A program made the position numbers and the translations under genes. The notes beneath the pieces are model-generated. The model made no database searches. It saw only the letters and a program-made list of their open reading frames with translations, and was not told the origin of the DNA. From the IMG/VR virus record IMGVR_UViG_2778261056_000004, positions 1 to 42,285 of that record: DNA of 42,285 nt. One strand, written 5' to 3'. Origin of the DNA: a virus. Its lineage: Duplodnaviria; Heunggongvirae; Uroviricota; Caudoviricetes. Position 1 is the stretch's first letter, and each line of letters opens with the position of its first letter. This document shows positions 2,563 to 4,926 of this stretch, in pieces.

Positions 2563-4926
2563 TTATTTGAATTTACGTATCAGCAACTGAGTGATCCGCA
2601 CTGTTCTGGCAATGTTCCTCGTTGCGTAAACTCCGCCGATAATCCCACCGCCGCAGAACTTACCCTGCGTCCAGTCCCCCGTATAGTTCAGTACGGGGGT
2701 GTCTATGGTCTCCCACCCATCGTAGACCTTAACGGTCTGAGTCGTAGGCGAGGTTTTTTCGCAGCGGATGAGGAACTTTCTTGCCCTATCGGTGGGACTG
2801 TAAACATCGTCTATCCCGGTCTGGATCTGAGGATAGGGAGCGGAACCCTGGTATGGATAACGAAGCTGGAGCAGGTTGAATGTTTTCGACGTGGCATACA
2901 AAAGCAGGCAATTATCCTCCTGATAATTATCTGCAGCTCCAGAGTTTCGGTTGAGGGACTTCCCGCCAAAGAAAAGAAAACCCGTATCCGTGTCGAAGAA
3001 GCCCTCAACCAGAATTTCAACTTTGTCACCTACCTGTCCGATATCAGCACAGTTTGTGCCGTCAAACATCTCAGGATTCATGAACGCCACGCGGTTATTT
3101 GTGGCATCCGCTTCGAAACGGAAATCGAGAGGCCCGGTTTTCTCCAGCGCATTCACCTGAATATAATTTGGCGCGCCGTAGTTGTTCACGTAACCAAAGG
3201 TGTCCCTGGCTTTCCAGAATGGATTGAACTCAAACCAGCCTCCCCAGAATGCTCCAACTCCGCTCGTTGCTGGCGCGATCACCTGGATACGGTTAAGCCC
3301 GTATTTCAACTTGGTAAGGTAGAACGGACGGTCTGTCGCGTTGATGGCTGCTTCGTTCTCACCAGTGTCCGGAAGCTCTTTATCGTAATAGGCGGAAGAG
3401 TTACCAAGTGAAAAGACCTTCACGCGCGGCAGCTGGTCGGCTGCATATGCAGATCCAATATTGCTGTTGCCAAAATTGCGGTATATCAGGGAATCCTGAT
3501 TACCCTCGCTCCACACGAAGAAGTCAAAGATAACCTCGCTCGCCACATAGTCTGCGGCCTGGATGTACCAGATCCGCGGGAACCGCGAGTATTTATATCC
3601 CTCTGACCCCGTATCAGGAACCCAGCTGGAATTGTAGTCCTTCGAATATCGCATCCGGCTGTCCATCCAGCAGATACGCTCAATATCCGTACCGTAGCAG
3701 CGAAGAATGTCAGGCATAAACGACTGAGCGATAAAGGACGCTTTCATCGCATGACCAACGTCCCCCCAGTGCAGACCGTCAGGCTGGAGTTCATACTGGT
3801 TGGAGTAATCGCTGTTTTTGGACATCCATGTTTTTTGCATGAAGTCCTGATCGATAATGGACACCCCCAGCACCTCCGCCATGTATTTTTTCGCGGCATC
3901 GATCTGGGCTGCCGCTTCTTCATTGTCACGCCCGGAAGTACCTGAGTTCCAGCCGTTGTAGGAGCGCCAGTTTGCATCGCAGGTCGTGAGTACGGGTGTG
4001 GCGCCGGCTGCGATAACCTTCTTCATGACCTCGATTGTTTGCGCGATATGCTCGGTGATTTTATTTCCTGCATCTGTAATATCATTCAGCCCGAAGCTGA
4101 TGAGCACGATATCCGGGTTAGAAGGAATGTAGGGGTTTTGCAGGACGATTTTATCAAAGTAATAATTTACCCAGCCGTTCTGCATTTGCTGGCCGGAATA
4201 CCCGGCGTTATAAACGCTGATGTTGTTGTTGCGATGGTATTGCCGAAGAATTGTTTGCAGTCTGGCACACCATGCATTGGGCGCTTCTGCGTTATGGTCA
4301 CTGTTGGCCAGAGGTGCAGTGGCCCACGGGAAGCCAGTTACAGGCGTGGTGGGGTTTGCCGTCCACCCCGTGGAGCCAGTACCATCCCCGGTCGAATCGG
4401 CAATACTGGTAATAATAACCGTCTCTCCGGCATGCATTTTTGCGGCCCAGTAATCCAGGGTTTTAATATGTCCCTGAAATAATGGTGCCGCGGCGCTGAG
4501 AATTAACTGCCGAAGAGAGGCATCTCCTACGGAAACAAAATGGGAAGAGTCAGTTGCATCCCACGAGGATTTTGTTGTCCCGGCTGTTTTATAAGGTGGT
4601 TTGGTACCAGCAGATAACTTATAGAATTCACCGTCATAACGAATCAGTTCGTTGTATTCAGAAACAGTAATAAGACCGTCTTCATAATCTCCAATTACGT
4701 CATAGCCCGCATTTTCAATAAAGGTGCGAAATCGCGTCTCCTGATCAGCAATCTGATTATTGAAGTCATATTCCATTCCACTCCACGATTTACGTATCCG
4801 ACCCAGCCTGTCGGTCCATGTTTTGTTGGTAATTCCATTTACCGCCTGGTCCAGGTTCTGAGCGTTATCACGTAAATCGCGTGGGTCAGTTGAATCCAGC
4901 GGGTTAAGAGTGTTGTATGGTGCCAT
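2563..4926 (-). CDS. tail fibre/tailspike protein with central SGNH (GDSL-like) esterase domain
   Basis: Phage-fibre-like N-terminus MAPYNTLNPLDSTDPRDLRDNAQNLD; SGNH blocks IADSTGDG (Ser), SFGLNDI (GxND), DGLHW (DxxH); RBS GGAGAAATACA before ATG at 4926. The track ORF start at 4971 lies inside the upstream terminator. Confidence 0.7.
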   Translation of the reverse strand: MAPYNTLNPLDSTDPRDLRDNAQNLDQAVNGITNKTWTDRLGRIRKSWSGMEYDFNNQIADQETRFRTFIENAGYDVIGDYEDGLITVSEYNELIRYDGEFYKLSAGTKPPYKTAGTTKSSWDATDSSHFVSVGDASLRQLILSAAAPLFQGHIKTLDYWAAKMHAGETVIITSIADSTGDGTGSTGWTANPTTPVTGFPWATAPLANSDHNAEAPNAWCARLQTILRQYHRNNNISVYNAGYSGQQMQNGWVNYYFDKIVLQNPYIPSNPDIVLISFGLNDITDAGNKITEHIAQTIEVMKKVIAAGATPVLTTCDANWRSYNGWNSGTSGRDNEEAAAQIDAAKKYMAEVLGVSIIDQDFMQKTWMSKNSDYSNQYELQPDGLHWGDVGHAMKASFIAQSFMPDILRCYGTDIERICWMDSRMRYSKDYNSSWVPDTGSEGYKYSRFPRIWYIQAADYVASEVIFDFFVWSEGNQDSLIYRNFGNSNIGSAYAADQLPRVKVFSLGNSSAYYDKELPDTGENEAAINATDRPFYLTKLKYGLNRIQVIAPATSGVGAFWGGWFEFNPFWKARDTFGYVNNYGAPNYIQVNALEKTGPLDFRFEADATNNRVAFMNPEMFDGTNCADIGQVGDKVEILVEGFFDTDTGFLFFGGKSLNRNSGAADNYQEDNCLLLYATSKTFNLLQLRYPYQGSAPYPQIQTGIDDVYSPTDRARKFLIRCEKTSPTTQTVKVYDGWETIDTPVLNYTGDWTQGKFCGGGIIGGVYATRNIARTVRITQLLIRKFK

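What the first reader, a model, noticed from the sequence alone, without database searches (positions are those of the whole stretch)
2563..4926. Tail fibre with embedded SGNH esterase domain (candidate receptor-modifying deacetylase)
A conserved fibre N-terminus is followed by an SGNH hydrolase core (Ser in IADSTG, GxND, DGLHW) and a large C-terminal domain. Such enzymes deacetylate O-antigen or capsule during adsorption, so this protein likely determines host range.
Basis: partly seen in the sequence, partly recalled or inferred. Interest (0 to 1): 0.4.

Follow-up and report, generated by a model that had tools for sequence, protein, structure and literature searches.

The report
Prophage tailspike carrying an acetyl-esterase
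The last tail gene of an E. coli prophage encodes a receptor-binding spike with an intact esterase domain, most likely one that strips acetyl groups from a host surface sugar during attachment; this kind of protein is already known, and this one is an uncharacterised member.

Summary
Window 2563-4926 (minus strand) is an intact 787-aa gene under purifying selection (dN/dS 0.07).

It has three modules:
- Residues 1-140: a virion anchor homologous to the N-terminus of the Shigella siphophage Sf11 tailspike gp13.
- Residues ~150-404: a canonical SGNH hydrolase domain. S178, G245, N281, D383 and H386 are invariant in 25 homologues.
- Residues 405-787: a lectin-like beta-sandwich region.

The same SGNH plus C-terminal cassette sits behind P22-type, epsilon15-type, T7-type and other anchors in other prophages. 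That is the usual behaviour of a host-range module.

Activity and substrate are untested. The substrate could be O-antigen, capsule, colanic acid or ECA.

RefSeq already names the protein "SGNH/GDSL hydrolase family protein", and esterase spikes are documented in phages and in Klebsiella prophages. It is a new member of a known kind, of low to moderate interest.

More interesting is something seen in passing. The group II intron 77 nt downstream sits exactly after a LexA box, and so does every other well-defined copy examined: 59 of 62 by a strict motif, with 48 distinct flanks.

The parts
2563..4926 (-). Complete tailspike gene, 787 aa plus TAA stop. Identical to RefSeq WP_089640291.1.
   Evidence: ORF and translation; exact-sequence look-up; dN/dS 0.069 against the L005 allele.
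4934..4937 (-). Ribosome-binding site GGAG. Its last base is 7 nt before the ATG.
   Evidence: Read directly from the sequence.
4941..4965 (-). Terminator-like hairpin plus T-run (AACCCGCTCCGGCGGGTT TTTTTAT) between the stop of the J-like gene and the tailspike start.
   Evidence: Pattern scan; a consensus match only.
4507..4926 (-). Module 1, residues 1-140: the virion-anchoring domain. It ends at the VSVGDASLR junction motif (residues 131-139).
   Evidence: phmmer hit to Sf11 gp13 (9occ), residues 2-142, E 7.9e-10, with a shared DPRDL motif; Sf11 R16 and K19 correspond to R16 and R19 here. PHROG tail-fibre families. BLAST breakpoints at residue ~140 in 30 homologues.
3715..4479 (-). Module 2, residues ~150-404: the SGNH/GDSL hydrolase domain.
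4393..4395 (-). Codon of Ser178, the predicted nucleophile (block I; reads ADS here rather than GDS).
   Evidence: Invariant column. The ADS variant is shared by a subclade.
4192..4194 (-). Codon of Gly245 (block II, NAGYSG), a predicted oxyanion-hole residue.
   Evidence: Invariant column. The assignment to block II rests on comparison with the TesA 'SGDT' motif, from general knowledge.
4084..4086 (-). Codon of Asn281 (block III, GLND).
   Evidence: Invariant column.
3769..3780 (-). Codons of Asp383 to His386 (block V, DGLH), the predicted acid and base of the triad.
   Evidence: Invariant columns.
2566..3714 (-). Module 3, residues 405-787: a lectin-like (ConA-type) beta-sandwich region. Presumed to bind the glycan.
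4984..8079 (-). Upstream neighbour: a J/TipJ-like tail-tip protein of 1031 aa. This is context for where the spike sits on the virion.
   Evidence: PF24801, phrog_469 and NCBIfam NF040662.
8951..9412 (-). 153-aa protein directly after the tape-measure gene. It is the candidate distal tail protein, and by analogy with Sf11 the candidate docking partner of the spike.
   Evidence: Gene order TMP, 153 aa, DUF1833, 126 aa, J, spike. phrog_384. No sequence match to the Sf11 DTP, so this is inference only.

Best explanation
The gene encodes a virion-borne receptor-binding tailspike of a lambdoid siphovirus prophage of E. coli.

Step 1, attachment to the virion (inferred). The N-terminal ~140 residues fix the presumably trimeric protein to the tail tip next to the J-like tip protein. 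The mode is probably the one seen in Shigella phage Sf11, where the N-terminal helices of gp13 bundle with an adaptor helix of the distal tail protein.

Step 2, receptor binding (inferred). The C-terminal lectin-like beta-sandwich region binds a host surface polysaccharide.

Step 3, catalysis (fold and residues shown; activity inferred). The central SGNH domain hydrolyses O-acyl esters, most likely O-acetyl, on that polysaccharide without cutting the backbone. The predicted catalytic residues are Ser178 as nucleophile, Gly245 and Asn281 as the oxyanion hole, and Asp383 with His386.

Step 4, consequence (inferred). As in coliphage G7C, binding followed by deacetylation gives reversible, processive primary adsorption. 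This brings the tail tip to the outer membrane, where the J-like protein engages a secondary receptor.

The most likely substrate is an O-acetylated O-antigen. A capsule, colanic acid or ECA are the alternatives. The SGNH plus lectin cassette is a portable host-range module that recombines at the VSVGDASLR junction onto different virion anchors.
For: Shown by computation:
- Gene: intact, with an RBS, and under purifying selection.
- SGNH signatures: above Pfam thresholds, with all four blocks invariant across 25 homologues.
- Closest structure: the G7C gp63.1 deacetylase tailspike, for the whole catalytic plus C-terminal region.
- Next closest: the esterase-active tailspikes of Shigella phages B2 and Moo19 (9d84, 9d81; activity reported in PMC11654681).
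- C-terminal region: resembles carbohydrate-binding lectin and CBM folds. It is coupled to an SGNH domain in 26 of 31 further relatives.
- N-terminus: homologous to the Sf11 gp13 anchor, whose attachment to the distal tail protein was solved by cryo-EM (PMC12724387).
- Synteny: TMP, small tail-tip proteins, J-like protein, then the spike as the last structural gene.
- Modularity: the same cassette, 73-92% identical, is the tailspike of a P22-like prophage. It also sits in the tailspike position of a prophage with T7 gp14-type core proteins. It carries P22 head-binding, Tail_spike_N or T7-fibre N-termini elsewhere.

From the literature:
- G7C gp63.1 deacetylates the O-antigen and this is essential for infection (PMC10743462, PMC6393563).
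- Two SGNH tail fibres of Klebsiella prophages hydrolyse p-nitrophenyl acetate (PMC13123978).
Against: - No activity, substrate or virion-incorporation data exist for this protein or for any relative closer than about 15% identity.
- Block I reads ADS rather than GDS. This is a subclade trait, not a lesion.
- The only lysogen whose O-antigen cluster I could read is E. coli 980-2, which carries a 79%-identical (nucleotide) cassette. It has an O1-family cluster with no annotated acetyltransferase, so an O-acetylated O-antigen is not evident there.
- Proteins in the same 90%-identity cluster occur in Enterobacter as well as E. coli. That fits a widely shared glycan at least as well as a serotype-specific one.
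- The proposed docking partner shows no sequence similarity to the Sf11 distal tail protein.
- The N-terminal part of the AF2 model is of low confidence (pLDDT 33-64).
Confidence: 0.78

Rival explanations
1. The architecture and chemistry are the same, but the substrate is not the O-antigen. It is instead a more widely shared O-acetylated glycan, such as colanic acid, enterobacterial common antigen or a capsule. The spike would then be less serotype-specific than the first reader implies.
For: - Near-identical proteins or cassettes occur in E. coli, Enterobacter roggenkampii and E. cloacae.
- Lysogen 980-2 has an O1-family O-antigen cluster without an acetyltransferase gene, next to a complete colanic-acid cluster.
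- In Klebsiella prophages, SGNH receptor-binding proteins were linked to capsule types (PMC13123978).
- A review proposes that conserved 'key polysaccharides' can serve such spikes (PMC10743462).
Against: - The closest characterised relatives (G7C gp63.1, Moo19 and B2 spikes) act on, or depend on, O-antigen acetylation.
- The cassette replaces the O-antigen-specific tailspike in a P22-like prophage and in a prophage with T7 gp14-type core proteins.
- O-acetyltransferases can be encoded outside the O-antigen cluster.
- The C-terminal region has recombined: dS is 1.23 there against 0.15-0.18 elsewhere in the gene. That is typical of specificity switching.
Confidence: 0.25
2. The protein is a lectin-type adhesin whose SGNH domain is catalytically silent or dispensable. 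It binds but does not modify the receptor.
For: - Block I deviates from the consensus (ADS for GDS).
- No activity data exist.
- Activity of prophage receptor-binding enzymes is hard to predict from sequence (PMC13123978).
Against: - All catalytic and oxyanion residues are invariant down to 25% identity.
- The SGNH domain has dN/dS 0.055.
- The Ala variant is fixed in a whole subclade and is not at a catalytic position.
Confidence: 0.08
3. The SGNH domain is a lipase or acyl-hydrolase that acts on lipid A or outer-membrane lipids to help the tail penetrate, rather than a carbohydrate esterase.
For: The SGNH superfamily includes lipases, thioesterases and acyloxyacyl hydrolase. These appear among the structural matches (TesA, AOAH).
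Against: - The top structural match by a clear margin is a polysaccharide deacetylase spike.
- Carbohydrate esterases score as high as or higher than lipases.
- The domain is fused to a lectin-like carbohydrate-binding region.
Confidence: 0.05
4. The protein is not a virion protein. It is a prophage-encoded accessory enzyme (a moron) that remodels the lysogen's own surface, for example for superinfection exclusion.
For: - It lies at the prophage end, next to accessory genes: a group II intron and a UmuD-like gene.
- A terminator-like hairpin separates it from the J-like gene.
Against: - No signal peptide or membrane segment is evident in the N-terminal sequence (read by eye, no predictor run). 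The N-terminus instead matches a structurally solved tailspike anchor.
- The cassette is the tailspike of a P22-like prophage and sits in the tailspike position of a prophage with T7 gp14-type core proteins.
- It is on the same strand as the late operon and immediately downstream of it.
Confidence: 0.03

Closest known systems
Coliphage G7C tailspike gp63.1 (PDB 4QNL), an O-antigen O-acetyl esterase
   Same: - An SGNH domain followed by a homologous C-terminal beta-sandwich region.
- A receptor-binding protein with an exchangeable N-terminal anchor.
   Different: - Only 13-15% sequence identity.
- G7C is a virulent N4-like podovirus, and its spike hangs on the gp66 fibre. Here the host is a temperate lambdoid siphovirus with an Sf11-type anchor.
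- In block V, gp63.1 has an insertion between Asp and His in the HMM alignment, whereas this protein has the canonical DxxH.
Esterase tailspikes of Shigella phages Moo19 (gp82, 9D81) and B2 (gp48/gp49, 9D84), and the SFP21A tail fibre Gp09 (9LNA)
   Same: - SGNH-containing phage spikes found by both profile and fold search.
- The Moo19 and B2 spikes hydrolyse 4-nitrophenyl acetate, and infection depends on O-antigen acetylation (PMC11654681).
   Different: - These are virulent Schitoviridae podophages.
- Structural overlap is lower than with gp63.1 (TM 0.36-0.38).
- The N-terminal domains are different.
SGNH-domain tail fibres of Klebsiella pneumoniae prophages (164_08-KL2 and 174_38-KL55; PMC13123978)
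   Same: - Receptor-binding proteins of temperate enterobacterial phages with an SGNH domain, proposed to deacetylate surface polysaccharide.
- Shown to be esterases on p-nitrophenyl acetate, and reported as prevalent in prophages.
   Different: - I did not compare the sequences directly.
- Those proteins are linked to capsule types of Klebsiella. This one is from E. coli, and its receptor is unknown.
Shigella siphophage Sf11 tailspike gp13 (PDB 9OCC)
   Same: - The N-terminal ~140 residues are homologous (E 7.9e-10), including the DPRDL segment with the basic residues that contact the distal tail protein.
- The gene order is the same: the spike directly follows the large tip/hub protein.
   Different: - The Sf11 gp13 body is a P22/Sf6-like beta-helix depolymerase, not an esterase.
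- The Sf11 distal tail protein (457 aa) has no detectable sequence relative in this window.

Membership tests
SGNH/GDSL hydrolase superfamily (Pfam PF13472, PF00657) | Block I nucleophilic Ser in a GDS(L)-type motif near the domain's N-terminus | tested here: met
   D177 and S178 are invariant in 25 homologues. The motif reads ADS in this subclade and GDS in most others.
SGNH/GDSL hydrolase superfamily (Pfam PF13472, PF00657) | Block II Gly and block III GxND Asn (the oxyanion hole) | tested here: met
   NAGYSG (G242 and G245 invariant) and FGLND (G279, N281 and D282 invariant).
SGNH/GDSL hydrolase superfamily (Pfam PF13472, PF00657) | Block V DxxH (catalytic Asp and His) | tested here: met
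   DGLH, with D383 and H386 invariant.
SGNH/GDSL hydrolase superfamily (Pfam PF13472, PF00657) | Profile score above the curated threshold, and an alpha/beta/alpha flavodoxin-like fold | tested here: met
SGNH/GDSL hydrolase superfamily (Pfam PF13472, PF00657) | Esterase or acyl-hydrolase activity | not testable with these tools
   Needs purified protein and an assay.
G7C gp63.1-type polysaccharide-deacetylating tailspikes | An SGNH domain followed by the gp63.1-type C-terminal beta-sandwich region | tested here: met
G7C gp63.1-type polysaccharide-deacetylating tailspikes | A structural component of the virion at the adsorption apparatus | tested here: inconclusive
   Supported by the anchor homology to Sf11 gp13, by synteny, and by module exchange with the tailspike of a P22-like prophage and the tailspike-position gene of a prophage with T7 gp14-type core proteins. 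There are no proteomic data.
G7C gp63.1-type polysaccharide-deacetylating tailspikes | Removes O-acetyl groups from the host O-antigen without cutting the backbone, and this is required for infection | not testable with these tools
   Known for gp63.1 only from the literature. One related lysogen shows no acetyltransferase in its O-antigen cluster.
Sf11 gp13-type siphophage tailspike anchors | N-terminal helical domain homologous to gp13 residues 4-59 and beyond, with basic residues facing the adaptor helix | tested here: met
   phmmer E 7.9e-10 for residues 2-142 against 2-130. Sf11 R16 and K19 correspond to R16 and R19 here (contacts from PMC12724387).
Sf11 gp13-type siphophage tailspike anchors | A distal tail protein with an adaptor helix that docks the spike | tested here: inconclusive
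   The 153-aa protein after the tape-measure gene has no sequence match to any PDB chain, 9occ included. Its role is inferred from gene order only.
Parallel beta-helix depolymerase tailspikes (P22, Sf6 or pectate-lyase type) | A right-handed parallel beta-helix catalytic body | tested here: not met
   No beta-helix or pectate-lyase Pfam hit. The model is alpha/beta plus beta-sandwich, and there are no beta-helix structures among the top matches.

The most novel reading that the evidence does not exclude
The cassette may recognise and deacetylate a glycan shared across genera, such as ECA or colanic acid, rather than a serotype-specific O-antigen. That would give temperate phages of E. coli and Enterobacter a common, portable 'key polysaccharide' entry module. 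The module works on at least three different tail architectures: lambdoid siphovirus, P22-like podovirus, and a podovirus-type prophage with T7 gp14-like core proteins.
Probability: 0.15. Interest if true: 0.45.

Novelty: new member of a known kind. Interest (0 to 1): 0.25.

Why it matters
Esterase (deacetylating) spikes are an alternative to depolymerases for crossing the polysaccharide shield. Recent work indicates they are common in temperate enterobacterial phages.

This example gives three practical things:
- Clean module boundaries: an anchor, a junction motif, the SGNH domain and a lectin-like domain.
- A defined set of catalytic residues to mutate.
- Evidence that the same catalytic cassette is swapped among siphovirus and podovirus anchors.

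That is useful for predicting host range and for engineering receptor-binding proteins. It does not open a new question. The mechanism is taken over from G7C gp63.1, and the protein is already annotated as an SGNH hydrolase.

Tried and rejected
1. Close relatives in sequenced phages.
- Megablast of the gene and of the tail-tip region against 50,697 phage records found nothing.
- tblastn found the catalytic plus C-terminal part only in Aeromonas phage ZPAH34, at 27.6% identity. The N-terminus matched at 40-46% in Klebsiella, Vibrio and Aeromonas siphophages.

2. Species-representative genomes. The scan returned only three irrelevant weak SGNH hits, so it gave no taxonomic picture.

3. Guessing the substrate from the O-serogroup of lysogens.
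- E. coli 980-2 has an O1-family wzx/wzy cluster without an acetyltransferase (my first attempt went in the wrong direction).
- In strain HNSQ2209 the prophage sits at the gal/mod site, far from the O-antigen cluster.
- I abandoned this line. It needs whole-genome serotyping of all lysogens.
- The O-antigen review did not give O1 acetylation in its searchable text.

4. Docking partner. The 153-aa candidate distal tail protein and the J-like protein have no PDB sequence relatives.

5. NCBIfam has no model for the spike.

6. Papers not held. The primary G7C paper (PMID 28513100) and the epsilon15 esterase-spike preprint are not in the library. Statements about gp63.1 therefore come from secondary sources.

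7. Degenerate active site. I considered this because of ADS in place of GDS, and rejected it because the variant is fixed in a subclade that retains all catalytic residues.

8. Lysogenic-conversion O-acetyltransferase in the window. None was found among the ten ORFs scanned, which were mostly from the low-GC parts of the window.
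Full report
**What is there**

The reported interval coincides with a minus-strand gene.
- The mechanical ORF runs 2563-4971.
- The ATG at 4926 is preceded by GGAG, whose last base is 7 nt upstream. It follows a terminator-like hairpin after the stop of the upstream gene.
- The product is 787 aa.
A block II motif, NAGYSG, lies at 240-245.
- Pfam Lipase_GDSL_2 and Lipase_GDSL both score above their curated cut-offs.
- Several PHROG 'tail fiber' families match either the first ~146 residues or the SGNH region.

**Is it a real, functional gene?**

- The identical protein is RefSeq WP_089640291.1, named 'SGNH/GDSL hydrolase family protein [Escherichia coli]'. It belongs to a 90%-identity cluster of 44 sequences from E. 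coli and Enterobacter.
- It was found on seven contigs.
- Against a 94%-identical allele (locus L005), dN/dS is 0.069 overall: 0.10 for the anchor, 0.055 for the SGNH domain and 0.051 for the C-terminal region.
- dS in the C-terminal region is 1.23, against 0.15-0.18 in the other two parts. The gene is therefore itself a recombinant mosaic.

**Context**

The window is a lambdoid prophage.
- It carries an integrase (41092-42285), a CI-like repressor (34512-35138) and a Q antiterminator (28531-29244).
- Its lambda-like tail genes end with tape measure, a 153-aa protein, a DUF1833 protein, a 126-aa protein and a 1031-aa J/TipJ-like protein.
- The spike gene directly follows the J-like gene and is the last structural gene.
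- Downstream lie a group II intron, a small ORF and a UmuD-like gene. In the public contigs these are followed by the host genes yejM, yejL, yejK, rplY and radD, which are 100% identical to E. coli.

The host is therefore E. coli.

**Anatomy**

BLAST breakpoints in 59 relatives define a sharp junction at residue ~140, inside the motif VSVGDASLR.

Module 1, residues 1-140:
- It is shared at 35-57% identity with proteins that carry quite different bodies, such as beta-helix or S74-chaperone fibres.
- It matches the solved N-terminus of Shigella siphophage Sf11 tailspike gp13 (9occ, E 7.9e-10), including the DPRDL segment.
- Sf11 Arg16 and Lys19 correspond to Arg16 and Arg19 here.
- In Sf11, cryo-EM showed these N-terminal helices bundling with an adaptor helix of the distal tail protein, with six trimers around the tip (PMC12724387).

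Modules 2 and 3, residues 140-787:
- They travel together. The cassette is 73-92% identical in proteins whose N-termini are of the P22 head-binding (PF09008) or T7-fibre (PF03906) type.
- One such protein is the tailspike of a P22-like prophage in E. coli 980-2.
- Another sits in the tailspike position of a prophage with T7 gp14-type core proteins in E. coli TCM3e1.
- In those two prophages no other tailspike is annotated in the regions I read, which argues strongly that the cassette is a primary receptor-binding module.

**Catalytic domain**

- In an alignment of 25 homologues reaching down to 25% identity, the invariant residues are D177 and S178 (block I), G242 and G245 (block II), G279, N281 and D282 (block III), and D383 and H386 (block V).
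- Block I reads ADS instead of GDS. The whole subclade shares this, so it is not a lesion.
- The AlphaFold model has mean pLDDT 74 and is high in residues 150-400.

**C-terminal region**

- Modelled alone, it is confident (pLDDT 83.6, pTM 0.86).
- By sequence it is a rare domain. Only 39 clusters among 1.84 billion representatives match at E <= 1e-3. All the full-length matches (600-1,000 aa) carry it at the C-terminus; the few shorter matches are fragments.
- 26 of 31 further members carry a Pfam SGNH domain. The non-matching members include short fragments of 243, 290 and 352 aa.

**Closest known systems**

- Next come Shigella phage B2 gp48, the SFP21A tail fibre and Moo19 gp82. A sequence profile finds 4qnl, 9d84 and 9lna among these.
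- According to PMC10743462 and PMC6393563, gp63.1 removes lateral O-acetyl groups from the E. coli 4s O-antigen and leaves the backbone intact. This is essential for infection.
- The Moo19 and B2 spikes hydrolyse 4-nitrophenyl acetate and depend on O-antigen acetylation (PMC11654681).
[quoted passage not shown] It showed two of them to be active esterases (PMC13123978).

**Mechanism proposed**

- Shown: the fold, the catalytic signature, the modular architecture, the gene position, and the homology to solved spikes.
- Inferred: the protein is trimeric and mounted on the tail tip through module 1. Module 3 binds a surface polysaccharide. Module 2 removes O-acetyl groups, giving reversible, processive primary adsorption ahead of a J-mediated secondary step.

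The substrate is unresolved.
- For the O-antigen: the characterised relatives, and the cassette occupying the tailspike position in podovirus-type prophages.
- Against a strictly serotype-specific target: cassettes above 90% identity occur in E. coli, E. cloacae and E. roggenkampii.
- The one lysogen whose O-antigen cluster I could read (980-2) has an O1-family cluster with no acetyltransferase.

I put 0.78 on 'virion-borne, active glycan O-acyl esterase'. Within that, I give roughly half to O-antigen and a quarter to capsule, colanic acid or ECA.

**Novelty and score**

This is an uncharacterised member of a known kind. It combines a gp63.1-type esterase cassette with an Sf11-type siphovirus anchor.
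- No sequenced phage isolate carries a close relative.
- Only 5 of 5,426 complete E. coli genomes have the cassette, at ~79% nucleotide identity.
- 27 of 2.9 million viral contigs encode a relative.

So it is uncommon, but not conceptually new. Interest 0.25.

**Seen in passing: a group II intron that homes to LexA boxes**

A 1,911-nt group II intron lies at 576-2486 on the minus strand. It has an Rfam RF02005 hit and a 495-aa reverse transcriptase. It begins immediately after TACTGTATATAAAAACAGT, a perfect LexA (SOS) box. This places it between the box and the ribosome-binding site of the downstream small-ORF plus UmuD-like genes.

- An intron-less allele defines the insertion point.
- The same intron, at >=99% identity, occurs in 219 of 5,426 complete E. 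coli genomes, mostly on plasmids.
- 59 of the 62 copies I examined pass a strict CTG-N10-CAG(T) test immediately before the intron's 5' end. The copies are the window, three copies of the same prophage, an E. cloacae prophage, a plasmid where the box is the umuDC operator, and 56 matches on 55 viral contigs.
- The three that fail the strict test are a near-consensus ATG-N10-CAGT box, two boxes ending CAGC instead of CAGT, and one intron-to-intron junction. Two of these three descriptions cover one copy each and the CAGC ending covers two, so together with the tandem junction they account for the failures apart from overlap in how the test was scored.
- There are 48 distinct 40-nt 5' flanks with the consensus TACTGTATATA[A/T]A[A/T]ACAGT, and the 3' exons are unrelated.
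- A candidate EBS1, ACUGU(U), lies at intron nucleotide 187.
- Four literature searches in the held library found no paper linking group II introns to LexA boxes.

This looks like an intron whose homing site is the SOS operator. It deserves its own follow-up.

Noticed in passing
window 576-2486 (minus strand); LexA box at 2487-2505. Also L002-L004, L012, L013 and L014-L068.: A 1,911-nt group II intron (RF02005; 495-aa RT at 636-2123) starts exactly after a perfect LexA/SOS box, TACTGTATATAAAAACAGT. Of 62 copies examined (prophages, a umuDC plasmid, 55 viral contigs), 59 pass a strict CTG-N10-CAG(T) test at the 5' junction. The exceptions are near-consensus boxes (ATG-N10-CAGT, or ending CAGC) and one tandem intron-to-intron junction. 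There are 48 distinct 5' flanks with the SOS-box consensus, and the 3' exons are unrelated. The intron occurs in 219 of 5,426 complete E. coli genomes, mostly on plasmids. A candidate EBS1, ACUGU(U), lies at intron nucleotide 187. No paper in the held library links group II introns to LexA boxes. This is possibly an intron that homes to SOS operators and so places itself under LexA control.
   Followed up: partly
window 2566-3714 compared with 3715-4926 (minus strand): Against the 94%-identical allele in L005, synonymous divergence is 1.23 in the C-terminal lectin-like region but only 0.15-0.18 in the anchor and SGNH parts. There is therefore a recombination breakpoint inside the gene near residue ~404, in addition to the one at residue ~140.
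   Followed up: partly
window 4941-4965 (minus strand): A terminator-like GC hairpin with a T-run lies in the 57-nt gap between the J-like gene and the tailspike gene. It may mark the boundary of the exchangeable spike cassette or modulate its expression.
   Followed up: no
L012 (Enterobacter cloacae GCA_020889425.1), 12643-18628: Next to the prophage that carries the 875-aa SGNH spike plus the same intron lies a second, oppositely oriented tail module. It has a J-like protein followed by a 688-aa protein with a SASA domain (PF03629, sialate O-acetylesterase family). This looks like another type of esterase spike behind a J-like gene.
   Followed up: no
window 22000-24100: A low-GC stretch (0.445-0.464, where neighbouring windows are 0.55-0.59) sits inside the head-gene region. 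It contains a 183-aa ClpP-like ORF (23466-24017) on the plus strand, opposite to the late operon, and a 164-aa ORF with no Pfam match.
   Followed up: no
window 1-569 (minus strand): After the intron come an 82-aa ORF (phrog_3893, unknown function) and a 106-aa UmuD-like protein (phrog_3469) that gets no Pfam Peptidase_S24 hit. The intron-less relative L005 instead has a single 129-aa Peptidase_S24 gene directly after the LexA box.
   Followed up: no
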